DNA from: the human T2T-CHM13v2.0 reference genome, Homo sapiens
Strand: one strand, 5' to 3'
Assembly: GCF_009914755.1 (NCBI RefSeq)
Contig: NC_060933.1
Length of the DNA: 64,000 nt
Shown here: positions 1 to 63,600 of the stretch, piece by piece
Numbering within the stretch: the first letter of the stretch is position 1
Layout: the number at the start of each line of letters is the position of its first letter
The notes under the pieces: generated by a model
Databases searched by the model: none
Told to the model about the DNA's origin: nothing
What the model saw: only the letters and a program-made list of their open reading frames with translations
Translations under genes and position numbers: made by a program

Positions 1-3000
1 TTGCATTCCATTCCATTCCTTTCCCCTGCACTCGGGTTAATTCCATTCCATTCCATTCCATTTAATTCCATTCCATTCCATTCCATTCCATTCCAATCCG
101 TTCCATTCCAGTCCATTCTATTCCATTGCAATCGACTTGATTCCATTCCATTCCATTCCATTCCATTCTATTCCATTCCATTCCATTCCATTCCATTTTT
201 TTCCAATCCATTCTATTCCGAACCATTCCATTCCATTCCATTTTTTTCCAATCCATTCTATTCCGAACCATTCCATTCCATTCCATTCCATTCCATTCCA
301 TTCCAGCCATTCCACTCGGGTTGATTCCATTCCTTTCCATTCCATTCGGGTTGAATCCATTCCACTCCATTCCATTCCATTCGAATCCATTCCATTGCAC
401 TCGGGTTGATTCCATTCCATTCCATTCCATTCGATTCCATTCCATTCCATTCCATTCCGTTCCATTCCATTGCATTACATTCACATTGATTCTATTCAAT
501 TCCCTTACACTCCATTATATTCCAATCCATTCTGGTTGTTTCCATTCCATTCCATTCCATTTCACTCCATTCCATTGCACTCGGTTTGATTCCATTCCAT
601 TCCATTCCATTCCATTCCGGATGATTCCATTCCATTGCATTCCATTCCATTCCATTCCCCTGCACTCAGGTTGATTCCATTCCATTCCATTCCACTGCAT
701 TCGGTTCCGTTCCATTCCATTCTATTGCATTCCATTCTATTCGGGTTAATTCCATTCCATTCTATTCCATTCCATTCCATTCCATTGTAATGGAGTTGAT
801 TCCCTTCCATTCCATTCCATTCCGGATGATTCCATTCCATTGCATTCCATTCCATTCCATTTCCCTGCACTCGTGTTGATTCCATTACCTTCCATTCCAT
901 TCCATTCCGTTCCATTCCATTGCATTCCATTCTATTCCGGTTAATTCCATTCCATTCCATTCCATTCCATTCCATTCCATTGCAATCGAGTTGATTGCAT
1001 TCCATTCCTTTCCATTCCATTCCATTGCCTTGCATTCCAATCGGATTGATTCCATTCCCTTCTTTCCACTCCATTACATTCCCTTCCATTCCACTCGGAA
1101 TGATTGATTCCATTCCATTCCATTCCATTTCATTCCGTTGCAATCCATTCCAATCTATTCCATTCCATTCCATTCCACTCGAGTTGATTTCATTCCATTC
1201 CTTTCCATTCCATTCCATTCCTTTCCACTCGAGTTGATTCCATTCCATTCCATTCCATTGCATTCCATTCCATGCCATTCCACTCGGGTTGATTCCATTC
1301 CTTTGCATTCCATTCCATTCCATTCCATTCCATTCCATTCCATTCCATTCCATTCCATTCCGTTGCATTCCATTCCATTACATTCGGATTGATTCTATTC
1401 AACTCCCTTACTCTCCATTACATTACATTCCATTCGGGTTGTTCCATTCCATTCCATTCCATTCCGAATGATTCCATTCCATTGCATTCCATTCGATTAC
1501 ATTCCCCTGCACTCGCGTTGATTCCATTCCATTCCATTCCATTCCATTCTATTCCATTCTATTACAATTCGTTCCATTCCATTCTATTCCGTACCATTCC
1601 ATTCCATTCCATACCATTCCATTCCATTCCATTCCATTCCATTCCATTCCATTCCATTCCGTTCCATTCCGTTCCATTCCATTCCATTTTATTCGGGTTA
1701 ATTCCATTCCATTCCATTCCATTCCATTCTTTTCCATTCCATTGCAATCGAGTTGAATCCATTGCATTTCATTCCATTCCATTCCATTCCATTGCATTCC
1801 GGAAGATTCCATTCCATTGCATTCCATTCCATTCCATTCCCCTGCACTCGCGTTGATTCCATTCCATTCCATTCCATTCCATTCAATTCCATTCCGTTCC
1901 GTTCCATTCCATTCCATTCCATTCCATTCCTTTCCATTCCATTACGGATGATTCCATTCCATTGCATTCCATTCCATTCCATTCCCCTGTACTCGGGATG
2001 ATTCCATTCCATTGCATTCCAATCCATGCCCTTCCACTCGTGTTGATTCCATTCTTTCCATTCCATTCAAGTTGAATCCATTCCATTGTATTCCATTCCA
2101 TTCGATTCCATTCGATTGCACTTGGGTTGATACCATTCCATTGCATTCCATTCCATTCCATTCCATTCCATTCCATTCCGTTCCATTCCATTCCATTACA
2201 TTCGGATTGATTCTATTCAATTCCCTTACACTCCATTACATTCCATTCCATTCGGGTAGTTTCCATTCCATTCCATTCCATTCCTCTCCATTCCATTGCA
2301 CTCGGGTTGATTCCATTCCATTGCATTCCATTCCATTCCATTCAATTCCATTCCGTTCCATTCCATTCCATTACATTCGGATTGACTCTATTCAACTCCC
2401 TTACTCTCCATTACATTCCATTCCATTCGGGTTGTTCCATTCCATTCCATTCCATTCCACTCCATTCCATTGCACTCGGGTTTATTCCATTCCATTCCAC
2501 AACATTCCATTCCATTCCATTCCATTCCATTCCGGAAGATTCCATTCCATTGCATTCCATTCCATTACATTCCCCTGCACTCGCGTTGATTCCATTCCAT
2601 TCCATTCCATTCCATTCCATTCCATTCCTTTCCGTTCCATTGCATTCCATTCCATTCCATTCGATTCCATTCCATTCCGTTCCGTTCCGTTCCGTTCCGT
2701 TCCATTCCATTCCATTCCATTCTATTCGGGTTAACTCCATTCCATTCCATTCGATTGCAATCGAGTTGATTCCATTCCATTCCATTCCATTCCATTCCAT
2801 TCCATTCCATTCCATTACGGATGATTCCATTCCATTGCATTCCATTCCATTCCATTCCCCTGTACTCGGGTTGATTCCATTCCATTCCATTCCAATCCAT
2901 GCCATTCCACTCGTGTTGATTCCATTCTTTCCATTCCATTCAAGTTGAATCCATTCCATTGCATTCCATTCCATTCCATTCCCCTGCAGTCGGGTTGACT

Positions 3001-3620
3001 CCATTCCATTCCATTCCTTTCCATTCCATTCCATTCCATTCCGTTCCGTTCCGTTCCGTTCCATTCCATTCCATTCTATTCGGGTTAATTCCATTCCATT
3101 CCATTCCATTCCAATCGAGTTGATTCCATTCCATTCCATTCCATTCCATTCCACTCCATTCCAGTCCTTTCCATTCCATTCCACTCGTGTTGATTCCATT
3201 CCCTTCCATTCCATTCCATACCATTCCATTCCATTCCATTCCGTTCCATTCCGTTCCATTCCATTCCATTCCATTCTATTCGGATTAATTCCATTCCATT
3301 CCATTCCATTCCATTCTATTCCATTCCGTTGCAATCGAGTTGAATCCATTGCATTTCATTCCATTCCATTCCATTCCATTCCATTCCGGAATTTTCCATT
3401 CCATTGCGTTCCATTCCATTCCATTCCATTCCGGTCCTTTCCATTCCATTCCATTCCATTCCGTTCCGTTCCATTCCATTCCATTCCATTCTATTCTGGT
3501 TAATTCCATTCCATTCCATTCCATTCCATTCCATTCCATTCCATTCCATTCCGTTCCATTCCGGAAGATTCCATTCCATTGCATTCCATTCCATTCCATT
3601 CCCCTGCACTCGCGTTGATT
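1..3620 (+). repeat. Long-range direct copy of ~29929-33650 (offset ~29.9 kb), also homologous to ~24.87-28.35 kb
   Basis: Shared markers: T7 run 196/25073/30124, TCACATTG 481/25363/30404, GTCGGGTTGACTCC 2989/27851/32922. The start CCCCTGCACTCGGGTTAA matches the copy at ~29951. Confidence 0.85.
1796..1810. promoter_or_regulatory. Consensus three-unit heat-shock element (nTTCn-nGAAn-nTTCn), representative of a recurrent site
   Basis: aTTCc-gGAAg-aTTCc. It recurs at 2529, 3558, 3703, 6324, 11166, 13533, 15356, 44760, 44805 and elsewhere, and reverse-complemented at 52958 and others. This is a motif match only; binding is not shown. Confidence 0.55.
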
Positions 3621-6600
3621 CCATTCCATTCCATTCCATTCCATTCCATTCCATTCCATTCCTTTCCGTTCCATTCCATTCCATTCCATTCCATTCCATT
3701 CCATTCCGGAAGATTCCATTCCATTGCATTCCATTCCATTCCCCTGCACTCGCGTTGATTCCATTCCATTCCATTCCATTCCATTCCATTCCATTCCATT
3801 CCTTTCCGTTCCATTCCATTCCATTCCATTCCATTCCATTCCATTCCGTTCCGTTCCGTTCCTTTCCATTCCATTCCATTCCATTCCATTCCATTCGGGT
3901 TAATTCCAGTCCATTCCATTCGATTGCAATCGAGTTGATTCCATTCCATTCCATTCCATTCCATTCCATTCAATTCCATTCCTTTCCATTCCACTACGGA
4001 TGATTCCATTCCATTGCATTCCATTCCATTCCATTCCCCTGTACTCGGGTTCATTCCATTCCATTCCATTCCAATCCATGCCATTTCACTCGTGTTGATT
4101 CCATTCTTTCCATTCCATTCAAGTTGAATCCATTCCTTTGCATTCCATTCCATTCCATTCCCCTGCAGTCGGGTTGATTCCATTCCATTCCATTCCATTC
4201 CATTCCATTCCATTCCGTTCCTTTCCATTCCATTCCATTCCTTTCCATTCTATTCAGGTTAATTCCATTCCATTCCATTCCATTCCAATCCATTCCATTC
4301 CAATCGACTTTATTCCATTCCATTCCATTCCATTCCATTCCACTCCATTCCAGTCCTTTCCATTGCATTCCACTCGGGTTGATTCCAATGTATTCCTTTC
4401 CATTCCGTTCCATTCCATTGCAATCGAGTTGATTCCATTTCTTTGCATTCCATTCCATTCCATTCCATTCCATTCCATTCGGATTCATTCTATTCAATTC
4501 CCTTACACTCCATTACATTCCATTCCATTCGTGTAGTTTCCATTCCATTCCATTCCTCTCCATTCCATTGCACTCGGGTTGATTCCATTCCATTCCATTC
4601 CATTCCATTCCATTCCATTCCATTCCATTCCATTCCGGATGATTCCATTCCATTGAATGCCATTGCATTCCATTCCCCTGCACTTGGGTTGATTCCATTC
4701 CATTCCATTACATTCCTTTCTTTTCCATTCCATTCCATTCCATTCCATTCTTTCGTGTTAATTCCATTCCATTCTCTTCCATTCCATTCCATTGAAATCG
4801 AGTTGATTCCATTCCATTCCATTCCATTCCATTCCATTCCATTCCATTCCGGATGATTCCATTCCTTTCCATTCCATTCTATTCCATTCCATTGTACTCG
4901 GGTTGATTCCATTCCATTGCATTCCATTCCATTCCATTCCATTCCATTCCGTTGCATTCCATTCCATTACATTCGGATTGATTCTATTCAACTCCCTTAC
5001 TCTCCATTACATTCCATTCCATTCGGGTTGTTCCATTCCATTCCATTCCATTCCACTCCATTCCATTGCACTCGGGTTGATTCCATTCCATTCCATTCCA
5101 TTCCATTCCATTCCGGATGATTCCATTCCATTGCATTCCGTTCCATTACATTCCCCTGCACTCGCGTTGATTCCATTCCATTCCATTCAATTCCATTCCA
5201 TTACAATTCGTTCCATTCCATTCTATTCCGTACCATTCCATTCCATTCCATACCATTCCATTCCATTGCATTCCATTCCTTTCCATTCCGTTCCATTGCA
5301 TTCTATTCGGGTTAATTCCATTCCATTCCATTCCATTCCATTCTATTCCATTCCATTGCAATCGAGTTGAATCCATTGCATTTCATTCCATTCCATTCCA
5401 TTCCATTCCATTCCGGAATATTCTATTCCATTGCATTCCATTCCATTCCATTCCCCTGCACTCGCGTTGATTCCATTCCATTCCATTCCATTCCATTCCA
5501 TTCCATTCCATTCCATTCCGTTCCGTTCCGTTCCATTCCATTCCATTCCATTCCATTCCAATCCATTCCGTTCCGTTCCATTCCATTCCATTCCATTCTA
5601 TTCGGGTTAATTCCATTCCATTCCATTCGATTGCAATCGTGTTGATTCCATTCCATTCCATTCCATTCCATTCCATTCCATTGCATTCCTTTCCATTCCA
5701 TTACGGATGATTCCATTTCATTGCATTCCATTCCATTCCATTCCCCTGTACTCGGGTTGATTCCATTCCATTGCATTCCAATCCATGCCCTTCCAGTCGT
5801 TTTGATTCCATTCTTTCCATTCCATTCAAGTTGAATCCATTCCATTGCATTCCATTCCATTCGATTCCATTCGATTGCACTCGGGTTGATTCCATTCCAT
5901 TGCATTCCATTCATTTCCATTCCATTCCATTCCATTCCATTCCATTCCATTCCATTCCATTCCGTTCCGTTCCATTCCATTCCATTACATTCGGATTGAT
6001 TCTATTCAATTCCCTTACACTCCATTACATTCCATTCCATTCGGGTAGTTTCCATTCCATTCCATTCCATTCCTCTCCATTCCATTGCACTCGGGTTGAT
6101 TCCATTCCATTGCATTCCATTCCATTCCATTCAATTCCATTCCGTTCCATTCCATTCCATTACATTCGGATTGATTCTATTCAACTCCCTTACTCTCCAT
6201 TACATTCCATTCCATTTCATTCCATTCCATTCCATTCCATTCCACTCCATTCCATTGCACTCGGGTTTATTCAATTCCATTCCATTCCATTCCATTCCAT
6301 TCCATTCCATTCCATTCCATTCCATTCCGGAAGATTCCATTCCATTGCATTCCATTCCATTCCATTCCCCTGCACTCGCGTTGATTGCATTCCATTCCAT
6401 TCCATTCCATTCCATTCCTTTCCGTTCCATTCTATTCCATTCCATTCGATTGCAATCGAGTTGATTCCATTCCATTCCATTCCATTCCATTCCATTCCTT
6501 TCCATTCCATTACGGATGATTCCATTCCATTGCATTCCATTCCATTCCATTCCCCTGTACTCGGGTTGATTCCATTTCATTCCATTCCATTCCATTCTAT

Positions 6601-9600
6601 TCCATTCCATTCCATTCCATTCCAGAAGTTTCCATTCCATTGCATTCCATTCCATTCCATTCCCCTGCACTCGCGTTGATTCCATTCCATTCCATTCCAT
6701 TCCATTCCATTGCATTCCATTCCGATCCATTCCATTCCATTCCATTCCATTCCATTCCGTTCCGTTCCATTCCATTCCATTCCATTCCATTCCATTCTAT
6801 TCGGGTTAATTCCATTCCATTCCATTCAATTGCAATCGAGTTGATTCCATTCCATTCCATTCCATTCCATTCCATTCCATTCCATTCCATTCCATTCCTT
6901 TCCATTACATTACGGGTGATTCCATTCCATTTCATTCCATTCCATTCCATTCCCCTGTACGCGGGTTGATTCTATTCCATTCCATTCCAATCCATGCCAT
7001 TCCACTCGTGTTGATTCCATTCTTTCCATTCCATTCAAGTTGAATCCATTCCATTGCATTCCATTCCATTCGATTCCATTCGATTGCACTCGGATTGATT
7101 CCATGGCATTGCATTCCATTCCATTCCATTCCAATCCATTCGTTTCCATTCCATTCCATTCCATTCCATTCGGATTCATTCTATTCAATTCCCTTACACT
7201 CCATTAGATTCCATGCCATTCGTGTAGTTTCCATTCCATTCCATGCCATTCCTCTCCATTCCATTGCACTCGGGTTGATTCCATTCCATTCCATTCCATT
7301 CCATTCCATTCCATTCCATTCCATTCCATTCCATTCCGGATGATTCCATTCCATTGAATTCCATTCCATTCCATTCCCCTGCACTTGTGTTGATTCCATT
7401 CCATTCCATTCCGTTCCTTTCTGTTCCATTCCATTCCATTCCATTCTATTCTTGTTAATTCCGTTCCATTCTATTCCATTCCATTCCATTGAAATCGAGT
7501 TGATTTCATTCCATTCAATTCCATTCCATTCCATTCAATTCCATTCGGGATGATTCCATTCCATTTTATTCCATTCCATTCCATTCCACTGCACTCGGGT
7601 TGATTCCATTCCATTCCATTCCATTACATTCCATTCCATTCCGTTCCATTTCATTCTATTCGGGTTAATTCCATTCCATTCCATTCCACTCCATTCCAGT
7701 CCTTTCCATTCCATTCCACTCGGGTTGATTCCATTCTATTCCTTTCAATTCCATTCCATTCCATTGCAATCGAGTGGATTCCATTCGAGTTGAATCCATT
7801 CCATTCCATTCCATTCCATTCCATTGCACACGGGTTCATTCCATTCCATTACATTCCATTCCATTCCATTCCATTCCATTTCATTCCATTCCATTCTATT
7901 CCGTACCATTCCATTCCATCCCATTCCATTCCGTTCCATTCCATGACATTACACTCGGGTTGATTCCATTCCTTTCCATTCCATTCTTGTTGAATCCATT
8001 CCATTCCATTCCATTCCATTCGAATCCATTCCATTGCACTCGGGTTGATTCCATTCCATTCCATTCCATTCCATTTCATTCCATTCCATTCCGTTACATT
8101 CGGATTGATTCTATTCAATTCCCTTACACTCCATTACATTCCATTCCATTCGGGATGTTTCCATTCCATTCCATTCCATTCCACTCCATTCCATTGCATC
8201 AGGTTGATTGCATTGCATTCCATTCCATTCCATTCCGGATGATTCCATTCCATTGCATTCCATTCTATTCCATTCCCCTGCACTCGGGTTGATTCCATTC
8301 CATTCCATTCCAATCCATTCCATTCCATTCCATTCCATTCCGTTCCATTACATTCCATTCCATTCTATTCCGGTAAATTCCATTGCATTCCATTCGATTC
8401 CATTCCATTCCATTCCATTCCATTGCAGTCGGGTTGATTCCATTCCATTGCATTCCATTCCATTCCATTCCGTTCCATTCCATTCCATTCCATTCTATTC
8501 GGGTTAATTCTATTCCATTCCATTCCATTCCATTCCATTCCATTCCGTTCCATTCCATTCCATTCCATTCTATTCGGGTTAATTCCATTCCATTCCATTC
8601 CATTCCATTGCATTCCATTCCATTCCATTCCCCTGCACTCGGGTTGATTCCATTCCATTCCACTCCATTCCGTTCCATTCCATTCCATTCCATTTTATTC
8701 GGGTTAATTCCATTCCATTCCATTCCATTCCATTCCATTCCATTCCATTCCATTCCATTCCATTACAATCGAGTTGATTCCATTTCATTTCATTCCATTC
8801 CATTAAATTCCATTCCAGTCCTTTCCATTCCATTCCACTCGGGTTGATTCCATTCTATTAGTTTGCATTCCATTCCATTCCCTTCCATTCCACTCTGGTT
8901 GATTCCATTCCTTTCCATTCCACTCGAATTCATTCCCTCCTATTCCACTCGGAACGATTCCATTCCATTCCATTCCATTCCATTCCATTCCATTCCAGTT
9001 CCTTCCATTCCATTCTATTCCGTACCATTCCATTCCATTCCATTCCTTTCCATTCCATTCCTTTCCACTCGTGTTGATTCCATTCCTTTCCATTCCATTC
9101 GGTTTGAAGGCATTCCATTCCATTCCATTCCATTCCATTCCATTCCGTTCCGTTCCATTCCATTCCATTCCATTCCATTCCATTCCATTCCATTCCGTTC
9201 CGTTCCATTCCATTCCATTCCATTCTATTCGGGTTAATTCCATTCCATTCCATTCGATTGCCATCGAGTTGATTCCATTCCATTCCATTCCATTCCATTC
9301 CATTCCATTCCATTCCATTCCATTCCATTCCATTCCATTCCATTCCTTTCCATTCCATTACGGATGACTCCATTCCATTGCATTCCATTCCATTCCATTC
9401 CCCTGTACTCGGGTTGATTCCATTCCATTCCATTACACTCCATTCGGTTCCGTTGCATTCCATTCTATTGCATTCCATTCTATTCTGGTTAATTCCATTC
9501 CATTCTATTCCATTCCATTCCATTCCATTCCATTGCAATGGAGTTGATTCCATTCCATTCCATTCCATTCCGGATGATTCCATTCCATTGCATTCCATTC

Positions 9601-11759
9601 CATTCCATTGCACTGCACTCGTGTTCATTCCATTCCGTCCATTCCATTCCATTCCATTCTATTCCGGTTAATTCCATTCCATTCCATTCCATTCCATTCC
9701 ATTCCATTGCAATCGAGTTGATTCCATTCCATTCCTTTCCATTCCATTCCATTGTCTTGCATTCCACTCGGGTTGATTCCATTCCCTTCTTTCCACTCCA
9801 TTACATTCCCTTCCATTCCACTCGGAATGATTGATTCCATTCCATTCCATTCCATTTCATTCCATTGCAATCCATTCCAATCCATTCCATTCCATTCCAT
9901 TCCACTCGAGTTGACTTCATTCAATTCCTTTCCATTCCATTCCATTCCTTTCCACTCGAGTTGATTCCATTCCATTCCAATCCATTGCATTCCATTCCAT
10001 GCCATTCCACTCGGGTTGATTCCATTCCTTTGCATTCCATTCCATTCCATTCCATTCCATTCCGTTGCATTCCATTCCATTACATTCGGATTGATTCTAT
10101 TCAACTCCCTTACTCTCCATTACATTCCATTCCATTCGGGTTGTTCCATTCCATTCCATTCCATTCCACTCCATTCCATTGCACTCGGGTTGATTCCATT
10201 CCATTCCATTCCATTCCATTCCATTCCATTCCGGATGATTCCATTCCATTACATTCCGTTCCATTACATTCCCCTGCACTTGCGTTGATTCCATTCCATT
10301 CCATTCCATTCCATTCCATTCAATTCCATTCCATTACAATTCGTTCCATTCCATTCTATTCCGTACCATTCCATTCCATTCCATACCATTCCATTCTATT
10401 CCATTCCATTCCATTCCATTCCATTCCGTTCCATTCCGTTCCATTCCATTCCATTCCATTCTATTCGGGTTAATTCCATTCCATTCCATTCGATTGCAAT
10501 CGTGTTGATTCCATTCTATTCCATTCCATTCCATTCCATTCCATTCCATTCCATTCCATTCCTTTCCATTCCATTACGGATGATTCCATTCCATTGCATT
10601 CCATTCCATTCCATTCCCCTGTACTCGGGTTGATTCCATTCCATTGCATTCCAATCCATGCCCTTCCACTCGTGTTGATTCCATTCTTTCCATTCCATTC
10701 AAGTTGAATCCATTCCATTGCATTCCATTCCATTCGATTCCATTCGATTGCACTCGGGTTGATTCCATTCCATTGCATTCCATTCCATTCCATTCCATTC
10801 CATTCCATTCCATTCCATTCCGTTCCATTCCATTCCACTACATTCGGATTGATTCTATTCAATTCCCTTACACTCCATTACATTCCATTCCATTCGGGTA
10901 GTTTTCATTCCATTCCATTCCATTCCTCTCCATTCCATTGCACTCGGGTTGATTCCATTCGATTGCATTCCATTCCATTCCATTCAATTCCATTCCGTTC
11001 CATTCCATTCCATTACATTCGGATTGATTCTATTCAACTCCCTTACTCTCCATTACATTCCATTCCATTCGGGTTGTTCCATTCCATTCCATTCCATTCC
11101 ACTCCATTCCATTGCACTCGGGTTGATTCCATTCCATTCCATTCCATTCCATTAAATTCCATTCCATTCCGGAAGATTCCATTCCATTGCATTCCATTCC
11201 ATTCCATTCCCCTGCACCCGCGGTGATTCCATTCCATTCCATTCCATTCCATTCCATTCCATACCTTTCCGTTCCATTCCATTCCATTCCATTCCATTCC
11301 ATTCCATTCCGTTCCGTTCCATTCCCTTCCATTCCATTCCATTCCATTCCATTCGGGTTAATTCCAGTCCATTCCATTCGATTGCAATCGAGTTGATACC
11401 ATTCCATTCCATTCCATTCCATTCCATTCCATTCCATTCCTTTCCATTCCATTACGGATGATTCCATTCCATTGCATTCCATTCCATTCCATTCCCCTGT
11501 ACTCGGGTTCATTCCATTCCATTCCATTCCAATCCATGCCATTCCACTCGTGTTGATTCCATTCTTTCCATTCCATTCAAGTTGAATCCATTCCATTGCA
11601 TTCCATTCCATTCCATTCCCCTGCAGTTGGGTTGATTCCATTCCATTCCATTCCATTCCATTCCATTCCATTCCATTCCGTTCCGTTCTGTTCCGTTCCG
11701 TTCCATTCCATTCCTTTCCATTCTATTCGGGTTAATTCCATTCCATTCCATTCCATTCC

Positions 11760-12850
11760 ATTCCATTCCATTCCATTCCAATCGAGTTGATTCCATTCCA
11801 TTCCATTCCATTCCATTCCACTCCATTCCAGTCCTTTCCATTCCATTCCACTCGGGTTGATTCCAATGTATTCCTTTCCATTCCGTTCCATTCCATTGCA
11901 ATCGAGTTGATTCCATTTTTTGCATTCCATTCCATTCCGGATGATTCCATTCCATTGCATTCCATTCCATTCCATTCCCCTGCACTCGGGTTGATTCCAT
12001 TCCATTCCATTCCATTCCGTTGCATTCCATTCCATTCCAATGTATTCGGAATAATTCCATTCCATTCCATGCCATTCCATTCCATTCCATTTCAATCGAG
12101 TTGAATCCATTCCATTCCATTCCATTCCAGTCCTTTCCATTCCATTCCACTCGGGTTGATTCCATTCTATTAGTTTCCATTCCATTCCATTCCCTTCCAT
12201 TCCACTCTGGTTGATACCATTCCTTTCCATTCCACTCGAATACATTCCCTCCTATTCCACTCGGAACGATTCCATTCCATTCCATTGCATTTCATTCCAT
12301 TCCATTCCAATCGAGTTGATTCCATTCCATTCCATTCCATTCCATTCCACTCCATACCAGTCCTTTCCTTTCCGTTCCACTCGGGTTGATTCCAATATAT
12401 TCCTTTCCATTCCATTCCATTCCATTGCAATCGAGTTGATTCCATTGCTTTGCATTGCGTTCCATTCCATTCCATTCCGGATGATTCCATTCCATTGTAT
12501 TCCATTCCATTCCACTCCCCTGCACTCGGGTTGATTCCATTCCATTCCACTCCATTCCGTTCCATTCCATTCCATTGCATTGTATTCGGGTTAATTCCAT
12601 TCCATTCCATTCCATTCCATTCCATTCCATTCCATTCCATTACAATTGAGTTGATTCCATTCCATTCCATTCCATTCCAGTCATTTCCATTCCATTCCCC
12701 TCGCGTTGATTCCATTCTATTAGTTTCCATTCCATTCCATTCCCTTCCATTCCACTCAGGTTTTTTCCATTCCTTTCCATTCCACTCGAATACATTCCCT
12801 CCTATTCCACTCGGAAGGATTCCATTCCATTCCATTCCATTCCTTTCCAT
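11760..12850 (+). repeat. ~530-550 bp diverged tandem duplication
   Basis: TCCAATGTATTCC ~11862 vs TCCAATATATTCC ~12391; TATTAGTTTCC ~12168/12718; CTCGAATACATTCCCTCC ~12235/12785. Confidence 0.7.
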
Positions 12851-44819: not shown

Positions 44820-45099
44820 ATTCCATTGCATTCCATTCCATTCCATTCCCCTGCACTCGCGTTGATTCCATTCCATTCCATTCCATTCCATTCCATTCCA
44901 TTCCTTTCCGTTCCATTCCATTCCATTCCATTCCATTCAATTCCGTTCCGTTCCATTCCATTCCATTCCATTCTATTCGGGTCAATTCCATTCCATTCAA
45001 TTCGATTACAATCGAGTTGATTCCATTCCATTCCATTCCATTCCATTCCATTCCATTCCTTTCCATTCCCCTGCACTCGGGTTGATTCCATTCCATTAC

Positions 45100-48532: not shown

Positions 48533-48636
48533 CCATTCCATTCCATTCCATTCCATTCCATTCCATTCCTTTCCATTCCATTACGGAATGGAATGGAATG
48601 GAATGGAATGGAATGGTATGGAATGGAATGGAATGG
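48533..48636. other. Inversion (strand-switch) breakpoint within the satellite array
   Basis: The sequence reads ...TTCCTTTCCATTCCATT-ACGG-AATGGAATGGAATGG... Elsewhere CATTACGGA continues as TGATTCC (e.g. ~47743, ~43514); here it runs directly into GGAAT repeats. Confidence 0.95.
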
Positions 48637-51600
48637 TATTGAATAGAATGGAATGGAACGAATTGTAATGGAATGGAATTGAATGGAATGGAATGGAATC
48701 AACGCGAGTGCAGGGGAATGTAATGGAACGGAATGCAATGGAATGGAATCATCCGGAATGGAATGGAATGGAATGGAATGGAATGGAATGGAATGGAATG
48801 GAATCAACCCGAGTGCAATGGAAAGGAGTGGAATGGAATGGAATGGAATGGAACAACCCGAATGGAGTGGAATGTAATGGAGAGTAAGGGAGTTGAATAG
48901 AATCAATCCGAATGTAATGGAATGGAATGCAACGGAATGGAATGGAATGGAATGGAATGGAATGCAATGGAATTGAATCAACCCGAGTACAATGGAATGG
49001 AATGGAATGGAATGGAATGGAATGGAATGGAATGGAATGGAATGATACGGAATAGAATGGAATGGAACGAAATGGAATGGAATGGAATGGAATGGAATGG
49101 AATGGAATGGAATGGAATGGAATTGTTCCGAGTGGAATAGGAGGGAATGTGTTCGAGTGGAATGGAAAGGAATGGTATCAACCAGAGTGGAATGGAAGGG
49201 AATGGAATGGAATGGAAACCAATAGAATGGAATCAACCCGAGTGGAATGGAATGGAAAGGACTGGAATGGAATGGAATGGAAAGGAATCAACTCGATTGT
49301 AATGGAATGGAATGGAATGGAATGGAATGGAATGGAATTAACCCGAATACAATGGAATGGAATGGAATGGAACGGAATGGAGTGGAATGGAATGGAATCA
49401 ACCCGAGTGCAGGGGAATGGAATGGAATGGAATGCAATGGAATGGAATCATCCGGAATGGAATGGAATGGAATGGAATGGAATGCAAAGCAATGGAATCA
49501 ACTCGATTGCAATGGAATGGAATGGAATGGAAAGGAATACATTGGAATCAACGCGTGTGGAATGGAATGGAATGGAAAGGACTGGAATGGAGTGGAATGG
49601 AATGGAATGGAATGGAATGGAATCAACTCGATTGGAATGGAATGGAATGGAATGGAATGGAATTAACCCGAATAGAATGGAATGGAATGGAATGGAACGG
49701 AACGGAATGGAATGGAATGGAATGGAATGGAATGGAATGGAATGGAATCAACCCGACTGCAGGGTAATGGAATGGAATGGAATGCAATGGAATGGATTCA
49801 ACTTGAATGGAATGGAAAGAATGGAATTAACACGAGTGGAATGGCATGGATTGGAATGGAATGGAATGGAATCAACCGGAGTACAGGGGAATGGAATGGA
49901 ATGGAATGCAATGGAATGGAATCATACGGAATGGAATGGAATGGAATGGAATGGAATGGAATGGAATGGAATGGAATGGAATCAATCCGAGTGCAATGGA
50001 ATGGAGTGGAATGGAATGAAATGGAATGGAACAACCCGAATGGAATGGAATGTAATGGAGAGTAAGGGAGTTGAATAGAATCAATCCGAATGTAATGGAA
50101 TGGAATGCAACGGAATGGAATGGAATGGAATGGAATGGAATGCAATGGAATGGAATCAACGGGAGTACAATGGAATGCAATGGACTGGAATGGAATGGAA
50201 TAGAATGGAATGGAATGAAATGGGATGCCTTCAAACCGAATGGAATGGAAAGGAATGAAATCAACACGAGTGGAATGGAATGGAATGGAATGGAATGGAA
50301 TGATACGGAATAGAATGGAATGGAACGAAATGGAATGGAATGGAATGGAATGGAATGGAATGGAATGGAATGGAATGGAATGGAATCGTTCCGAGTGGAA
50401 TAGGAGGGAAAGTATTCGTGTGGAATGGAAAGGAATGGAATCAACCAGAGTGGAATGGAAGGGAATGGAATGGAATGGAAACTAATAGAATGGAATCAAC
50501 CCGAGTGGAATGGAATGGAAAGGACTGGAATGGAAAGGAGTGGAATGGAATGGAATGGAATGGAATGGAATGGAATGGAATGGAATGGAATCAACGCGAG
50601 TGCAGGGGAATGGAATGGAATCGAATGGAATGGAATGGAATGGAATGGAATCAACCCGAGTGCAGGGGACTGTAATGGAACGGAATGCAATGGAATGGAA
50701 TCATCCGGAATGGAATGCAATGGAATGGAATGGAATCAACCCGAGTGCAATGGAATGGAGTGGAATGGAATGGAATGGAATGGAACAATCCGAATGGAAT
50801 GTAATGTAATGGAGAGTAAGGGAGTTGAAAAGAATCAATCCAAATGTAATGGAATGGAACGCGATGGAATGGAATGGAATGGAATGGAATGGAACGGAAT
50901 GCAATGGAATGGAATCAAACCGAGTACAATGGAATGGAATGGAATGGAATGGAATGGAATGGAATGGAATGGAATGGAATGATACGGAATAGAATGGAAT
51001 GGAACGAAATGGAATGGAATGGAATGGAATGGAATGGAATGGAATGGAATGGAATCGTTCCGAGTGGATTAGGAGAGAATGTATTCGAGTGAAATGGAAA
51101 GGAATGGAATCAACCAGAGTGGAATGGAAGGGAATGGAATGGAATGGAAACTAATAGAATGGAATCAACCCGAGTGGAATGGAATGGAAAGGACTGGAAT
51201 GGAATGGAATGGAATGGAATCAACTCGATTGTAATGGAATGGAATGGAATGGAATGGAATGGAATGGAATGGAATCAACCCGAGTGGAATGGAATGGAGT
51301 GGAATGGAATGGAATGGAATGGAGAGTAAGGGAGTTGAATAGAATCAATCCGAATGTAATGGAATTGAATGGAACGGAATGGAATGGAATGGAATGGAAT
51401 GGAAACTACCCGAATGGAATGGAATGTAATGCAGTGTAAGGGAATTGAATAGAATCAATCCGAATGTAATGGAAAGGAATGGAACGGAATGGAATGGAAT
51501 GGAATGGAATGGAATGGAATGGAATGGAATGCAATGGAATGGAATCAACCCGAGTGCAATCGAATGGAATCAAATTGAATGGAATGCAATGGAATGGATT

Positions 51601-54600
51601 CAACTTGAATGGAATGGAAAGAATGGAATGAACACGAGTGGAATGGCATGGATTGGAATGGAATGGAATGGAATCAACCCGAGTACAGGGGAATGGAATG
51701 GAATGGAATGCAATGGAATGGAATCATCCGTAATGGAATGGAAAGGAATGGAATGGAATGGAATGGAATGGAATGGAATGGAATGGAATGGAATCAACTC
51801 GATTGCAATCGAATGGAATGGAATGGAATTAACCCGAATAGAATGGAATGGAATGGAATGGAACGGAACGGAATGGAATGGAATGGAATGGAACGGAACG
51901 GAATGGAACGGAATGGAATGGAATGGAATCAACGCGAGTGCAGGGGAATGGAATGGAATGGAATGCAATGGAATGGAAACTTCCGGAATGGAATGGAATA
52001 GACTGGAATGGAATGGAATGAAATGCAATGGATTCAACTCGATTGCAATGGAATGGAATAGAATGGAATGGAATGGAATGGAATGGAATGGAATGGAATT
52101 AATCCGAATAGAATGGAATGGAATGGAATGGAACGGAATGGAACGGAATGGAATGGAATGGAATGGAATGGAATGGAATGGCATGGAATGGAATGGAATG
52201 GTACAGAAAAGAATAGAATGGAACGAATTGTAATGGAATGGAATTGAATGGAATGGAATGGAATGGAATGGAATCAACGCGAGTGCAGGGGAATGTAATG
52301 GAACGGAATGCAATGGAATGTAATCATCCGGAATGGAATGGAATGGAATGGAAAGGAATGGAATCAACCTGAGTGCAATGGAATGGTGTGGAATGGAATG
52401 GAATGGAATGGAACAACCCGAATGGAATGGAATGTAATGGAGAGTAAGGGAGTTGAATAGAATCAATCCGAATGTAATGGAATGGAATAGAACGGAATGG
52501 AATGGAATGGAATGGAATGCAATGGAATGGAATCAACCCGAGTGCAATCGAATGGAATCACATTGAATGGAATGCAATGGAATGGATTCAACTTGAATGG
52601 AAAGGAAAGAATGGAATCAACACGAGTGGAAGGGCATGGATTGGAATGCAATGGAATGGAATCAACCCGAGTACAGGGGAATGGAATGGAATGGAATGCA
52701 ATGTAATGGAATCATCCGTAATGGAATGGAAGGGAATGGAATGGAATGGAATGGAATCAACACGATTACAATCGAATGGAATGGAATGGAATTAACCCGA
52801 ATAGAATGGAATGGAATGGAATGGAACGGAACGGAATGGAATGGAATGGAATGGAATGGAATGGAACGGAACGGAACGGAATGGAATGGAATGGAATGGA
52901 ATGGAATGGAATCAACGCGAGTGCAGGGGAATGGAATGGAATGGAATGCAATGGAATGGAATCTTCCGGAATGGAATGGAATGGAATGGAATAGAATGGA
53001 ATGGAATGGAATGGAATGGAATCAACCCGAGTACAGGGGAATGGAATGGAATGTATTGCAATGGAATGGAATCATCCGTAATGGAATGGAAAGGAATGGA
53101 ATGGAATGGAATGGAATGGAATGGAATGGAATCAACTCGATTGCAATCGAATGGAATGGAATGGAATTAACCCGAATAGAATGGAATGGAATGGAACGGA
53201 ACGGAACGGAACGGAATGGAATGGAATCGAGTGGAACGGAACGGAATGGAATGGAATGGAATGGAATGGAATGGAATGGAATCAACGCGAGTGCAGGGGA
53301 ATGGAATGGAATGGAATGCAATGGAATGGAATCTTCCGGAATGGAATGGAATGGAATGCAATGGATTCAACTCGATTGCAATGGAATGGAATAGAATGGA
53401 ATGGAATGGAATGGAATGGAATTAACCCGAATAAAATGGAATGGAATGGAATGGAACGGAACGGAACGGAACGGAATGGAATGGAATGGAATGGAATGGT
53501 ATGGAATGGAATGGAATGGTACGGAATAGAATGGAATGGAAAGAATTGGAATGGAATGGAATCGAATGGAATGGAATGGAATGGAATGGAATCAACCCGA
53601 GTGCAGGGGAATGTAATGGAACGGAATGTAATGGAATGGAATCATCCGGAATGGAATGGAATGGAATGGAATGGAATGGAATGGAATGGAACCAACTCGA
53701 TTGTGATGGAATGGAATGGAATGGAATGGAATGGAATTAACCCGAATACAATGGAATGGAATGGAATGGAACGGAATGGAGTGGAATGGAATGGAATCAA
53801 CCCGAGTGCAGGGGAATGGAATGGAATGGAATGCAATGGAATGGAATGCAATGGAATGGAATGGAATGGAATGGAATGCAAAGCAATGGAATCAACTCGA
53901 TTGCAATGGAATGGAATGGAATGGAAAGGAATACATTGGAATCAACCCGAGTGGAATGGAATGGAAAGGACTGGAATGGAGTGGAATGGAATGCAATGGA
54001 ATGGAATGGAATCAACTCGATTGGAATGGAATGGAATGGAATGGAATGGAATGGAATGGAATGGAATTAACCCGAATAGATTGGAATGGAATGGAATGGA
54101 ATGGAACGGAACGGAACGGAATGGAATGGAATGGAATGGAATGGAATGGAATGGAATCAACCCGACTGCAGTGGAATGGAATTGAATGGAATGCAATGGA
54201 ATGGATTCAACTTGAATGGAATGGAAAGAATGGAATCAACACGAGTGGAATGGCATGGATTGGAATGGAATGGAATGGAATCAACCCGAGTACAGGGGAA
54301 TGGAATGGAATGGAATGCAATGGAATGGAATCATCCGTAATGGAATGGAAAGGAATAGAACGGAATGGAATGGAATGGAATGGAATGGAATGGAATCAAC
54401 TCGATTGCAGTCGAATGGAATGGAATGGAATTAACCCGAATAGAATGGAATGGAATGGAATGGAACGGAACGGAAGGGAACGGAACGGAATGGAATGGAA
54501 TGGAATGGAATGGAACGGAAAGGAATGGAATGGAATGGAATGGAATGGAATGGAATGGAATCAACGCGAGTGCAGGGGAATGGAATGGAATGGAATGCAA

Positions 54601-57600
54601 TGGAATGGAATCTTCCGGAATGGAATGGAATGGAATGGAATGGAATGGAATTAACCCGAATAGAATGGAATGGAATGGAATGGAACGGAACGGAATGGAA
54701 TGGAATGGAATGGAATGGAATGGAATGGAATGGAATCAACGCGAGTGCAGGGGAATGGAATGTAATGGAATGCAATGGAATGGAATCTTCCGGAATGGAA
54801 TGGAATGGAATGGAATGGAATCAACCCGAGTGCAATGGAATGGAGTGGAATGGAATGGAATGGAATGGAACAACCCGAATGGAATGGAATGTAATGGAGT
54901 GTAAGGGAGTTGAATAGAATCAATCCGAATGTAATGGAATTGAATGGAATGGAACGGAATGGAATTGAATGGAATGGAATGGAATGCAATGGAATGGAAT
55001 CAACCCGAGTGCAATGGAATGGAGAGGAATGGAATGGAATGTAGTGGAAACTACCCGACTGGAATGGAATGTAATGGAGTGTAAGGGAATTGAATAGAAT
55101 CAATACGAATGTAATGGAAAGGAATGGAACTGAATGGAATGGAATGGAATGGAATGGAATGGAATGGAATGGAATGCAATGGAATGGAATCAACCCGAGT
55201 GCAATCGAATGGAATCGAATGGAATGGAATGCAATGGAATGGAATCAACTCGATTGCAATCGAATAGAATGGAATGGAATTAACCCGAATAGAATGGAAT
55301 GGAACGGAATGGAAAGGAACGGAATCGAATGGAATGTAATGGAATGGAATGGAACGGAATGGAATGGAATGGAATCAACGCGAGTGCAGGTGAATGTAAT
55401 GGAACGGAATGCAATAGAATGGAATCATCCGGAATGGAATGGAATGGAATCAACCCGAGTGCAATGGAATGGAGTGGAATGGAATGGAATGGAATGGAAC
55501 AACCCGAATGGAATGGAACGTAATGGAGAGTAAGGGAGTTGAATAGAATCAATCCGAATGTAATGGAATGGAATGCAACGGAATGGAATGGAATGGAATG
55601 CAATGGAATGCAATCAACCCGAGTACAATGGAATGGAATGGAATGGAATGGAATGGAATGGAATGGAATGCCTTCAAACCGAATGGAATGGAAAGGAATG
55701 GAATCAACACGAGTGGAATGGAATGGAATGGAATGAAATGGAATGGAATGGAATGATACGGAATAGAATGGAATGGAACGAAATGGAATGGAATGGAATG
55801 GAATGGAATGGAATGGAATGGAATCGTTCCGAGTGGAATAGGAGGGAATGTATTCGAGTGGAATGGAAAGGAATGGAATCAACCAGAGTGGAATGGAAGG
55901 GAATGGAATGGAATGGAAACTAATAGAATGGAATCAACCCGAGTGGAATGGAATGGAAAGGACTGGAATGGAATGGAACGGAATGGAATGGAATGGAATG
56001 GAATCAACTCGATTGTAATGGAATGGAATGGAATGGAATGGAATGGAATGGAATGGAATGGAATTAACTCGAATACAATGGAATGGAATGGAATGAAACG
56101 GAATGGAGTGGAATGGAATGGAATCAACCCGAGTGCAGGGGAATGGAATGGAATGGAATGCAATGGAATGGAATCATCCGGAATGGAATGGAATGAAATG
56201 GAATGCAAAGCAATGGAATCAACTCGATTGCAATGGAATGGAATGGAATGGAAAGGAATACATTGGAATCAACCCGAGTGGAATGGAATGGAATGGAAAG
56301 GACTGGAATGGAGTGGAATGGAATGGAATAGAATGGAATGGAATCAACTCGATTGGAATGGAATGGAATGGAATGGAATGGAATGGAATTAACCCGAATA
56401 GAATGGAATGGAATGGAATGGAACGGAACGGAACGGAATGGAATGGAATGGAATGGAATGGAATGGAATGGAATCAACCCGACTGCAGGGGAATGGAATG
56501 GAATGGAATGCAATGGAATGGAATCATCCGGAATGGAATGGAATGGAATGCAATGGAATGGAATCAACCCGAGTGCAATTGAATAGAGTGAAATGGAATG
56601 GAAACAAGCAGAATGGATTGGAATATAATGGAGTGTAAGGGAATTGAATAGAATCAATCTGAATGTAATGAAATGGAATGGAACGGAATGGAATGGAATG
56701 GAATGGAATGGAATGGAATGGAATGCAATGGAATGGAATCAACCCGAGTGCAATCGAATGGAATCGAATGGAATGGAATGCAATGGAATGGATTCAACTT
56801 GAATGGAAAGGAAAGAATGGAATCAACACGAGTGGAATGTCATGGATTGGAATGGAATGGAATGGAATCAACCCGAGTACAGGGGAATGGAATGGAATGG
56901 AATGCAAAGGAATGGAATCATACATAATGGAATGGAATGGAATGGAATGGAATGGAATGGAATGGAATCAACTCGATTGCAATCGAATGGAATGGAATGG
57001 AATTAACCCAAATAGAATGGAATGGAATGGAATGGAATGGAACGGAACGGAACGGAATGGAATGGAATGGAATGGAATGGAACGGAACGGAACGGAATGG
57101 AATGGAATGGAATGGAATGGAATGGAATCAACGCGAGTGCAGGGGAATGGAATGGAATGGAATGCAATGGAATGGAATCTTCCGGAATGGAATGGAATGG
57201 AATGGAATGGAATGAAATGCAATGGATTCAACTCGATTGCAATGGATTGGAATAGAATGGAATGGAATGGAATGGAATGGAATTAACCTGAATAGAATGG
57301 AATGGAATGCAATGGAACGGAATGGAACGGAATGGAATGGAATGGAATGGAATGGAATGAAATGGTATGGAATGGAATGGAATGGTACGGAATAGAATGG
57401 AATGGAACGAATTGTAATGGAATGGAATTGAATGGAATGGAATGGAGTCAACGCAATTGCAGGGGAATGTAATGGAACGGAATGCAATGGAATGGAATCA
57501 TCCGGAATGGAATGGAATGGAATGGAATGGAATGGAATGGAATGGAATCAACCCGAGTGCAATGGAATGGAGTGCAATGGAATGGAATAGAGTGGAATTG

Positions 57601-60600
57601 AATGGAATTGAATGGAACAACACGAATGGAATGGAATGTAATGGAGAGTAAGGGAGTTGAATAGAATCAATCTGAATGTAATGGAATGCAACGGAATGGA
57701 ATGGAATGGAATGGAATGGAATGCAATGGAATGGAATCAACCCGAGTACAATGGAATGGAATGGAATGGAATGGAATGGAATGGAATGGAATGGAATGGT
57801 ATGGAATGGAATGGAATGGTACGGAATAGAATGGAATGGAACGAATTGTAATGGAATGGAATTGAATGGAATGGAATGGAATGGAATGGAATCAATGCGA
57901 CTTCAGGGGAATGTAATGGAACGGAATGTAATGGAATGGAATCATCCGGAATGGAATGGAATGGAATGGAATGGAATCAACCCGAGTGCAATGGAATGGA
58001 GTGGAATGGAATGGAATGGAATGGAACAACCCGAATGGAATGGAATGTAATGGGGAGTAAGTGAGTTGAATAGAATCAATCCGAATGTAATGGAATGGAA
58101 TGCAACGGAATGGAATGGAATGGAATGGAATGGAATGGAATGCAATGGAACGGAATGCAATGGAATGGAATCAACCCGAGTACAATGGAATGGAATGGAA
58201 TGGAATGGAATGGAATGGAATGGAATGGAATTGAATGGAATGAAATGCCTTCAAACCGAATGGAATGGAAAGGAATGGAATCAACACGAGTGGAATGGAA
58301 TGGAATGGAAAGGAATGGAATGGAATGGAATGATACGGAATAGAATGGAATGGAACGAAATGGAATGGAATGGAATGGAATGGAATGGAATGGAACGGAA
58401 TGGAGTGGAATGGAATGGAATCAACCCGAGTGCAGGGGAATGGAATGGAATGGAATGCAATGGAATGGAATTAACCCGAATAAAATGGAATGGAATGGAA
58501 TGAAACGGAATGGAGTGGAATGGAATGGAATTAACCCGAGTGGAGGGGAATGGAATGGAATGGAATGCAATGGAATGGAATCATCCGGAATGGAATGGAA
58601 TGGAATGGAATGCAAAGCAATGGAATCAACTCGATTGCAATGGAATGGAATGGAATGGAAAGGAATACATTGGAATCAACCCGAGTGGAATGGAATGGAA
58701 AGGAGTGGAATGGAGTGGAATGGAATGGAATGGAATGGAATGGAATCAACTCGATTGGAATGGAATGGAATGGAATGGAATGGAATGGAATGGAATGGAA
58801 TTAACCCGAATAGAATGGAATTGAATGGAATGGAACGGAACGGAACGGAATGGAATGGAATGGAATGGAATCAACCCGACTGCAGGGGAATGGAATGGAA
58901 TGGAATGCAATGGAATGGATTCAACTTGAATGGAATGGAAAGAATGGAATCAACACGAGTGGAATGGCATGGATTGGAATGGAATGGAATGGAATCAACC
59001 CGAGTACAGGGTAATGGAATGGAATGGAATGCAATGGAATGGAATCATCCGTAATGGAATGGAAAGGAATGGAATGGAATGGAATGGAATGGAATGGAAT
59101 GGAATGGAATCAACCCGATTGCAATGGAATGGAATGGAATGGAATTAACCCGAATAGAATGGAATGCAATGTAATGGAACGGAACGGAACGGAATGGAAT
59201 GGAATGGAATGCAATGGAACGGAAAGGAATGGAATGGAATGGAATGGAATGGAATGGAATGGAATGGAATCAACGCGAGTGCAGGGGAATGGAATGGAAT
59301 GGAATGCAGTGGAATGGAATCTTCCGGAAGGGAATGGAATGGAATGGAATGCAATGGAATAAACCCGAGTGCAATGGAATGGAGTGGAATGGAATGGAAT
59401 GGAATGGAACAACCCGAATGGAATGGAATGTAATGGAGAGTAAGGGAGTTGAATAGAATCAATCCGAATGTAATGGAATGGAATGGAACGGAATGGAATT
59501 GAATGGAATGGAATGGAATGCAATGGAATGGAATCAACCCGAGTGCAATGGAATGGAGAGGAATGGAATGGAATGGAGTGGAAACTACCCGAATGGAATG
59601 GAATGTAATGGAGTGTAAGGGAATTGAATAGAATCAATCCGAATGTAATGGAAAGGATTGGAAAGGAATGGAATGGAATGGAATGGAATGGAATGGAATG
59701 CAATGGAATGGAATCAACCCGAGTGCAATCGAATGGAATCGAATGGAATGGAATGCAATGGAATGGAATCAACTCGATTGCAATCGAATGGAATGGAATG
59801 GAATTAACCCGAATAGAAACGAATGGAATGGAATGGAAAGGAACGGAACGGAATGGAATGGAATGGAATGGAATGGAACGGAACAGAATGGAATGGAAAG
59901 GAATGGAATGGAATCAACGCGAGTGCAGGGGAATGGAATGGAATGGAATGCAATTGAATGGAATCTTCCGGAATGGAATGGAATGGAATGGAATGGAATG
60001 AAATGCAATGGATTCAACTCGATTGCAATGGAATGGAATAGAATGGAATGGAATGGAATGGATTGGAATTAACCCGAATAGAATGGAATGTAATGCAATG
60101 GAACGGAATGGAATGGAATGGAATGGAATGGAATGGAATGGAATGGTATGGAATGGAATGGAATGGTACGGAATAGAATGGAATGTAACGAATTGTAATG
60201 GAATGGAATTGAATGGAATGGAATGGAATCAACGCGAGTGCAGGGGAATGTAATGGAACGGAATGCAATGGAATGGAATCATCCGGAATGGAATGGAATG
60301 GAATAGAATGGAATGGAATGGAATCAACCCGAGTGCAATGGAATGGAGTGAAATGGAATGGAATGGAATGGAGACAACCAGAATGGATTGGAATATAATG
60401 GAGTGTAAGGGAATTGAATAGAATCAATCTCAATGTAATGAAATGGAATGGAACGGAATGGAATGGAATGGAATGGAATGGAATAGAATGCAATGGAATG
60501 GAATCAACCCGAGTGCAATCGAATGGAATCGAATGGAATGGAATGCAATGGAATGGATTCAACTTGAATGGAATGGAAAGAATGGAATCAACACGAGTGG

Positions 60601-63600
60601 AATGGCATGGATTGGAATGGAATGGAATGGAATCAACCCGAGTATAGAGGAATGGAATGGTATGGAATGCAATGGAATGGAATCATCCGTAATGGAATGG
60701 AAAGGAATGGAATGGAATGGAATGGAATGCAATGGAATGGAATCAACTCGATTGCAATCGAATGGAATGGAATGGAATTAACCCGAATAGAATGGAATGG
60801 AATGGAATGGAACGGAACGGAATGGAATGGAATGGAATGGAATGGAATGAAACGGAAAGGAAGGGAATGGAATGGAATAGAATGGAATGGAATGGAACCA
60901 ACGCGAGTGCAGGGGAATGGAATGGAATGGAATGCAATGGAATGGAATCTTCCGGAATGGAATGGAATTGAATGGAAGGGAATGGAAACAACCCGAGTGC
61001 AATGGAATGGAGTGGAATGGAATGGAATGGAATGGAACAACCCGAATGGAATGGAATGTAATGGAGTGTAAGGGAATTGAATAGAATCAATCCGAATGTA
61101 ATGGAATGGAATGGAACGGAACGGAATGGAATGGAATGGAATGGAATGGAATGGAATGGAATGCAATGGAATGGAATCAACCCGAGTGCAATCGAATGGA
61201 ATCGAATGGAATGGAATGCAATGGAATGGATTCAACTTGAATGGAATGGAAAGAATGGAATCCACACGAGTGGAATGGCATGGATTGGAATGGAATGGAA
61301 TGGAATCAACCCGAGTACAGGGGAATGGAATGGAATGGAATGCAATGGAATGGAATCATCCGTAATGGAATGGAAAGGAATGGAATGGAAAGGAATGGAA
61401 TGGAATGGAATGGAATCAACTCGATTGCAATCGAATGGAATGGAATGGAATTAACCCGAATAGAATGGAATGGAATGGAATGGAATGGAATGGAACGGAA
61501 TGGAATGGAATGCAATGGAATGGAATCTTCCGGAATGGAATGGAATGGAATGGAATGGAATGGAATGGAATAGAATGGAATCAACCTGAGTGCAATGGAA
61601 TGGAGTGGAATGGAATGGAATGGAATGGAACAACCCGAATGGAATGGAATGTAATGGAGAGTAAGGGAGTTGAATAGAATCAATCCGAATGTAATGGAAT
61701 GGAATGTAACGGAATGGAATGGAATGGAATGGAATGGAATGCAATGGAATGGAATCAAACCGAGTGCAATGGAATGGAGAGGAATGGAATGGAATGGAAT
61801 GGAAACTACCCGAATGGAATGGAATGAAATGGAGTGTATGGGAATTGAATAGAATCAATCCGAATGTAATGGAATGGAATGGAACGGAATGGAATGGAAT
61901 GGAATGGAATGGAATGGAATGGAATGGAATGCAATGGAATGGAATCAACCCGAGTGCAATCGAATGGAATCGAATGGAATGGAATGCAATGGAATGGATT
62001 CAACTTGAATGGAATGGAAAGAATGGAATCAACACGAGTGGAATGGCATGGATTGGAATGGAATGGAATGGAATCAACCCGAGTACAGGGGAATGGAATG
62101 GAATGGAATGCAATGGAATAGAATCATCCGTAAAGGAATGGAAAGGAATGGAATGGAATGGAATGGAATGGAATGGAATGGAATCAACTCGATTGCAATC
62201 GAATGGAATGGAATGGAATGCAAAGCAATGGAATCAACTCGATTGCAATATAATGCAATGGAATGGAAAGGAATACATTGGAATCAACCCGACTGGAATG
62301 GAATGGAAAGGACTGGAATGGAGTGGAATGGAATGGAATGGAATGGAATGGAATGGAATGGAATGGAATGCAAACGAATGGAATCAACCCGAGTGGAATG
62401 GCATGGAATGGAATGCAATGGATTGGAATGGAATGGAATCAACTCGAGGAGAAAGGAATGCAATGGAATGGAAAGGAATGGAATGAAGTCAACTCGAGTG
62501 GAATGGAATGGAATGGAATGGAATGGAATGGATTGCAATGGAATGAAATGGAATGGAATGGAATGGAATCAATCATGGAAGGGAATGTAATGGAGTGGAA
62601 AGAAGGGAATGGAATCAACCCGAGTGGAATGCAAGGCAATGGAATGGAATGGAAAGGAATGGAATGGATTCAACTCGATTGCAATGGAATGGAATGGAAT
62701 GGAATGGAATGAAATGGAATGGAATTAACCGGAATAGAAAGGAATGGAATGGAATGGAACGGAATGGAATGGAATGGAAGGGAATGGAATCAACACGAGT
62801 ACAGGGGAATGGAATGGAATGGAATGAAATGGAATGGAATCATCCGGAATGGAATGGAATGGAATGGAATCAACTCCATTGCAATGGAATGGAATGGAAT
62901 GGAATGGAATGGAATAGAATGGAATGGAATTAACCCGAATACAATGGAATGCAATAGAATGGAATGCAACGGAACCGAATGGAGTGGAATGGAATGGAAT
63001 GGAATCAACCCGAGTACAGTGGAATGGAATGGAATGGAATGCAATGGAATGGAGTCATCCGTAATGGAATGGAAAGGAATGGAATGGAATGGAATGGAAT
63101 GGAATGGAATCAACTCGATGGCAAACGAATGGAATGGAATGGAATTAACCCGAATAGAATGGAATGGAATGGAATGGAAAGGAACGGAATGGAATGGAAT
63201 GGAATGGAATGGAATGGAAAGGAACGGAATGGAATGGAATGGAATGGAATGGAATGGAATTAACGCGAGTGCAGGGGAATGGAATGGAATGGAATGCAAT
63301 GGAATGGAATCTTCCGGAATGGAATGGAATGGAATGGAATGAAAGGCAATGGATTCAACTCGATTGCAATGGAATGGAATAGAATGGAATGGAATGGAAT
63401 GGAATGGAATGGAATGGAATGGAATGGAATGCCTTCAAACCGAATGGAATGGAAAGGAATGGAATCAACACGAGTGGAAAGGAATGGAATGGAAAGGAAT
63501 GGAATGGAATGGAATGGTACGGAATAGAACGGAATGGAAGGAACTGGAATGGAATGGAATGGAATGGAATGGAATGGAACGGAATCGTTCCGAGTGGAAT

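What the first reader, a model, noticed from the sequence alone, without database searches (positions are those of the whole stretch)
1796..63320. Recurrent perfect HSE built into one module, with variants that keep the TTC-GAA-TTC core
Seen: ATTCCGGAAGATTCC fits nTTCn-nGAAn-nTTCn and recurs on the order of once per 1-2 kb, usually just upstream of CCCCTGCACTCGCGTTG. Several variants change only the n positions: ATTCCGGAATTTTCC (3383), ATTCCGGAATATTCT (5410), ATTCCAGAAGTTTCC (6619), ATTCCGGAAGTTTCC (~23188, ~28235, ~33331, ~47482). Core-breaking copies also exist (~16817, ~33591, ~37291). The sister module ATTCCGGATGATTCC lacks GAA and serves as an internal non-HSE control. Established: HSF1 binds inverted nGAAn arrays and nucleates nuclear stress bodies on satellite III; the pure pentamer offers only direct repeats. 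Inference: these 15-mers may be the discrete HSF1 docking sites, and each has a central CpG that could be methylated. The CCGGAAGT variant is also an ETS consensus.
Basis: partly seen in the sequence, partly recalled or inferred. Interest (0 to 1): 0.7.

Follow-up and report, generated by a model that had tools for sequence, protein, structure and literature searches.

The report
Heat-shock elements in chromosome 9 satellite
One changed five-base unit in the chromosome 9 satellite creates a perfect heat-shock-factor motif that is repeated over ten thousand times and is likely where HSF1 docks during stress, an idea already supported in print at coarser scale.

Summary
The window is HSat3B5 satellite on chr9. 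It has 45 perfect three-unit heat shock elements (HSEs; 34 on +, 11 on -), 36 of them the exact 15-mer, one per 1.4 kb on average. They are array-wide: 18 of 20 chr9 samples have them, and a 22-mer form has 11,520 exact copies genome-wide. In an (ATTCC)n background one GGAAG pentamer makes a full HSE, so recurrence is descent by amplification, not separate design. Selection is therefore not shown. GAT is a one-mismatch HSE, not a clean negative control. HSF1 motifs in HSat3 with ChIP reads over them are published (Franklin et al.), as are perfect HSEs on chrY. The exact 15-mer was not found in the searched library. Verdict: known in substance, with a useful base-level detail.

The parts
4..48582 (+). 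HSat3B5 satellite, CATTC on the + strand; holds 34 three-unit HSEs
   Evidence: TRF period 5; the published HSat3B5 marker 24-mer occurs 43 times in the window; HSE list
48585..63980 (-). The same satellite inverted; holds 11 three-unit HSEs
1796..1810 (+). First exact HSE 15-mer (nTTCn-nGAAn-nTTCn, central CpG)
6324..6383 (+). Representative whole GAA module: HSE, plain pentamers, ATTGC, four plain pentamers, CCTGC-ACTCG-CGTTG landmark; 5,029 exact copies genome-wide (63-base form)
63306..63320 (-). Last exact HSE 15-mer
614..628 (+). First exact GAT sister 15-mer (31 on +, 12 on -); one base from the HSE
23188..33345 (+). Three GGAAGTTTCC variants (23188, 28235, 33331) in a tandem duplication of about 5.05 kb; with 3383 they are paralogues of one site
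33581..33595 (+). Core-broken HSE module (third unit TTG)
37281..37295 (+). Core-broken HSE module (third unit TCC)
16813..16827 (+). TAC-lineage module carrying GAA; not a perfect HSE
48578..48590 (.). Inversion junction, at the start of a TAC-GAT module, with a 4-base overlap shared by both arms

Best explanation
The chr9 HSat3B5 array carries a 60-base module in which one GGAAG pentamer between plain ATTCC pentamers forms a perfect three-unit heat shock element, present in over ten thousand copies, and these copies are likely the main docking sites for activated HSF1 trimers. Shown: the motif, its module, its spread along the array and its one-base relation to three GAT sister lineages. Inferred: it arose once by a T-to-A change in a GAT module and spread through ordinary satellite duplication, with no proven selection on the core; one site about every 1.8 kb would give the local HSF1 density that seeds nuclear stress bodies. 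Untested: binding at base level and any effect of the central CpG.
For: 45 sites in the window. 112 sites in 200 kb of chr9 samples, 18 of 20 samples positive, extrapolating to about 15,500 over 27.6 Mb (bootstrap 11,600-19,500; array size). 11,520 exact 22-mers genome-wide. GAA and GAT modules share spacing and downstream landmark, and three of four lineages have GAT. Paralogous clusters show spread by duplication. HSF1 ChIP-seq reads are enriched in motif-dense parts of HSat3 (bioRxiv 10.1101/2024.10.22.616524). The other primary stress-body locus, chrY, also has perfect HSEs (PMC7889540; 3 and 2 in two 4-kb samples). Five satellite samples from chr15, chr16, chr1 and chr20 have none.
Against: No binding data were analysed here. 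Recombinant HSF1 shifted a chr9 clone whose NGAAN units were described as non-canonical, and shifted only its slow-migrating forms (PMC2173303). One-mismatch centres are commoner in the window than GAA (GTT 106, GAT 49, GAA 45). Against the no-selection part: core changes are 6.7% in GAA versus 18.3% in GAT genome-wide, and still 3.8% versus 7.0% after removing four amplified types, while flanking divergence is alike (1.6% versus 1.6-1.9% per inner site). The other-array samples are small, and 3 of 10 missed satellite.
Confidence: 0.65

Rival explanations
1. The HSE core is actively preserved: array variants that keep TTC-GAA-TTC are favoured in amplification or by selection on stress-body capacity.
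For: Genome-wide n-to-core ratio 2.74 for GAA versus 0.63 for GAT, a 4.3-fold contrast. In 135 anchor-defined GAA modules, 24 n changes versus 6 core changes (15 with sister-type states); p=8e-5 against pooled GAT lineages by copies. None of the 6 core types recurs, while 4 n types do. Flank divergence does not show GAA to be younger. Among strongly diverged landmark frames only 3 of 30 (1 of 30 at a stricter setting) equal its bias.
Against: Copies are not independent. By distinct types p=0.40. Four types make up 62% of GAT core variants, and four make up 42% of GAA n variants. 22 of 104 other frames have an equal or larger edge bias and 16 of 104 an equal or lower inner rate; the median frame already favours edges (log2 0.87), and GAT is itself in the low tail. 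With about 15,000 copies a single broken site should be nearly neutral (inference).
Confidence: 0.15
2. The perfect HSE is incidental: HSF1 loads on the array through the many one-mismatch or direct-repeat sites, DNA structure or condensate spreading, so GAA modules are not special.
For: The 2002 study favoured structure recognition as an alternative because its clone lacked canonical HSE organisation. Non-canonical HSEs with mismatches remain functional (PMC13072094). 214 G-retaining imperfect centres versus 45 perfect ones in the window.
Against: Published ChIP signal follows motif density rather than being uniform. Both primary stress-body arrays carry perfect HSEs of different sequence, and the five other satellite samples carry none.
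Confidence: 0.2

Closest known systems
HSF1 motifs in HSat3 sub-regions (Franklin et al., bioRxiv 10.1101/2024.10.22.616524; passages and section 5 read, figures and supplements not seen)
   Same: Same genome assembly and satellite family; HSF1 motifs mapped, and heat-shock ChIP reads enriched where they are dense.
   Different: The text read gives motif density, not the 15-mer, its module or its GAT sister; which array Fig. 2b shows could not be seen.
Perfect HSEs in chrY SatIII (PMC7889540; passages read, supplements unreadable)
   Same: Canonical HSEs scattered in HSat3 at a primary stress-body locus, with HSF1 ChIP nearby.
   Different: Different subfamily and different HSE sequences, so likely an independent origin.
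Putative HSEs at 9q12 (review PMC9032817; passages read)
   Same: Same locus and same claim.
   Different: Given as an unpublished observation, without sequence; the number of sites is stated to be unknown.
pHuR98 binding by HSF1 (PMC2173303; passages read)
   Same: Direct HSF1 binding to chr9 SatIII, competed by an HSE.
   Different: That clone had non-canonical NGAAN units; here the elements are canonical.

Membership tests
Canonical heat shock element | Alternating inverted nGAAn pentamers, three in a row | tested here: met
   45 sites with three units; none with four
Canonical heat shock element | Bound by activated HSF1 | not testable with these tools
   No ChIP reads available; published support is regional only
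Canonical heat shock element | Drives heat-induced transcription nearby | not testable with these tools
   HSF1-dependent SatIII transcription is known for the locus, not per site
Constrained regulatory element | Core positions change less than spacer positions, beyond array background | tested here: inconclusive
   4.3-fold contrast with GAT, but within the spread of other frames and not significant by types
HSat3B5 | (CATTC)n-derived tandem array | tested here: met
HSat3B5 | Subfamily marker 24-mer (PMC4022460 table) | tested here: met
   43 copies in the window and present in 20 of 20 chr9 samples; the three other markers tried gave 0
ETS site | CCGGAAGT consensus (recalled) and ETS binding | tested here: inconclusive
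   5 matches in the window, 3 of them paralogues; binding untested

The most novel reading that the evidence does not exclude
A single base change gave chromosome 9 its stress-body competence, and the satellite has since preferentially kept and amplified copies with an intact HSE core: sequence-level constraint on a transcription-factor site inside a 27-Mb satellite, with chrY reaching the same state independently.
Probability: 0.15. Interest if true: 0.75.

Novelty: already known. Interest (0 to 1): 0.3.

Why it matters
What HSF1 reads on 9q12 was left open in 2002 (canonical sites or DNA structure), and a 2022 review called the number of sites unknown. This gives a concrete candidate, an estimate of about 15,000 sites, and a sister module one base away. 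Existing ChIP reads can then answer the question by k-mer counting, without mapping. The concept itself is not new.

Tried and rejected
Chance test by pentamer shuffling: of little value, since copies descend from each other. Treating copy counts as independent events: rejected after finding paralogue clusters. A younger age of the GAA lineage as the cause of its low core rate: not supported by flank divergence. GAT as a strict negative control: rejected. ETS function: nothing beyond the motif. A fold-back origin of the inversion: no long inverted duplication seen. Three of ten other-chromosome samples (L028-L030) missed satellite, so chr13, chr21 and chr22 are untested. Literature: no paper held the 14-base core in either orientation; searches on methylation and HSF1 binding in satellite III gave 0 papers and 2 unrelated papers; HSF1 + ChIP-seq + HSATIII + HSE + T2T gave 0. 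Two papers looked up by id were not held.

Full report
What the window is. One period-5 satellite array: CATTC on + from 4 to 48582, inverted from 48585 to 63980. The HSat3B5 marker from PMC4022460 (passages read) occurs 43 times; three other subfamily markers tried do not occur.

The observation. The exact 15-mer occurs 27 + 9 times, and all three-unit HSEs 34 + 11 times. Mean spacing is 1.4 kb, and 33 of 45 have the exact downstream landmark within 60 bp. No four-unit HSE exists in the window or in the chr9 samples. The element is ATTCC-GGAAG-ATTCC. Its outer units are the plain satellite pentamer, so any in-phase nGAAn pentamer among plain neighbours makes a perfect HSE. There are 48 such pentamers, and shuffling pentamers still gives a mean of 23.7 HSEs (maximum 35 in 200 shuffles).

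Anatomy. Anchoring on the downstream landmark in the window plus 20 chr9 samples found 641 anchors. 55 had no recognisable centre, and 34 fell in ambiguous or minor classes left out of the test. The rest form four homologous lineages: one GAA (141 anchored) and three GAT (79, 191 and 141). I infer that GAT is ancestral. It holds three of four lineages, and the GAT 22-mer appears from 48.79 Mb whereas the GAA 22-mer first appears at 49.16 Mb (first listed places).

Spread. 112 HSEs lie in 200 kb of evenly spaced chr9 samples, 18 of 20 positive, range 0-12 per 10 kb. That extrapolates to about 15,500 (11,600-19,500). Genome-wide exact counts are 11,520 for the GAA 22-mer and 18,003 for GAT. Only the first 100 places are listed, all on contig 9, so restriction to chr9 is likely but not shown. 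Of ten 4-kb samples elsewhere (places chosen from recall, contig numbers read as chromosomes), two on chrY had 3 and 2 HSEs of other sequence, five satellite samples (chr15 twice, chr16, chr1, chr20) had none, and three missed satellite.

Local sample: of 141 GAA-lineage anchors, 6 were dropped as non-homologous; of 135 kept, 103 are exact and 122 have an intact core. There are 24 n changes and 15 core changes, 6 after removing sister-lineage states. The GAT lineages show 49 n and 74 core changes pooled (53 of 411 anchors dropped as non-homologous). By copies p=8e-5; by distinct types p=0.40. Genome-wide, in a 34-base frame covering 18 n types and 22 of 27 core types: GAA has 9,862 exact, 1,807 n-only (18.3%) and 659 core-only (6.7%); GAT has 14,566 exact, 1,692 (11.6%) and 2,671 (18.3%). 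The asymmetry is real in the counts.

Why it does not show selection. Four types chosen after the fact carry 62% of GAT core variants; without them the rates are 7.0% versus 3.8%. Four types carry 42% of GAA n variants; without them GAA is at 10.6%, close to GAT. Across abundant in-phase 25-mer frames the median already favours pentamer edges. 22 of 104 other frames equal or exceed GAA, and GAT lies in the low tail (16 of 104 at or below it). Among strongly diverged landmarks, 3 of 30 equal GAA, or 1 of 30 at a stricter setting (frames overlap, so these are ranks, not p-values). I call it inconclusive, leaning neutral.

Control, CpG and ETS. GAT keeps both TTC units and the G. Mismatched HSEs can bind (PMC13072094, passages), and the standard HSE probe quoted itself has a GAC unit (my reading). 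CpG transitions occur in 4 of 135 GAA and 7 of 218 GAT modules, about 1.5% per type against 0.2-0.4% for non-amplified core types. This fits germ-line methylation of both (inference, small numbers). Whether methylation blocks HSF1 is untested, and two searches found nothing relevant. The ETS-like variant has 5 window copies.

Mechanism. Activated HSF1 binds inverted nGAAn repeats. One perfect site about every 1.8 kb over 27.6 Mb would concentrate HSF1 and seed stress bodies and SatIII transcription (inference). Locus-level binding is established; base-level binding is not.

Prior art. Franklin et al. report HSF1 motifs in sub-regions of HSat3 with heat-shock ChIP reads enriched there. PMC7889540 reports four perfect HSEs in a 3,564-bp chrY repeat with ChIP nearby. 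PMC9032817 mentions putative HSEs at 9q12 as unpublished. PMC10505914 (passages) speaks of HSE-like sequences scattered in HSat3. PMC2173303 left canonical versus structural recognition open. PMC5499866 and PMC13705371 (passages) added only background. The 14-base core was in no paper of the searched library. Most subscription papers are missing from it, and the figures and supplements of the Franklin and chrY papers, which I could not see, may show this motif.

Verdict. A real feature, known in substance, with a base-level description that makes a cheap decisive test possible. Interest 0.3.

Noticed in passing
window 48578-48590: Strand inversion whose junction falls at the start of a TAC-GAT module, with a 4-base overlap shared by both arms. 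HSat3B5 is known to hold many inversion breakpoints (bioRxiv 10.1101/2021.07.12.452052, passages). Whether breakpoints favour these CGGA sites is open.
   Followed up: partly
window 23185-34000 and 1-4300: Tandem duplication of about 5.05 kb; the first 4.3 kb of the window recurs at offsets of about 24.9 and 29.9 kb.
   Followed up: partly
L003 and L009 (G000:C9 52.30 Mb and 60.70 Mb): Two 10-kb chr9 samples with no HSE and few landmark modules: natural HSE-free controls within the array.
   Followed up: no
L023, L024: chrY satellite samples carry three-unit HSEs unrelated in sequence to the chr9 one, at higher density (5 in 8 kb), suggesting an independent origin.
   Followed up: partly
window 44760-44819: Two HSEs only 45 bases apart, the closest pair in the window.
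   Followed up: no
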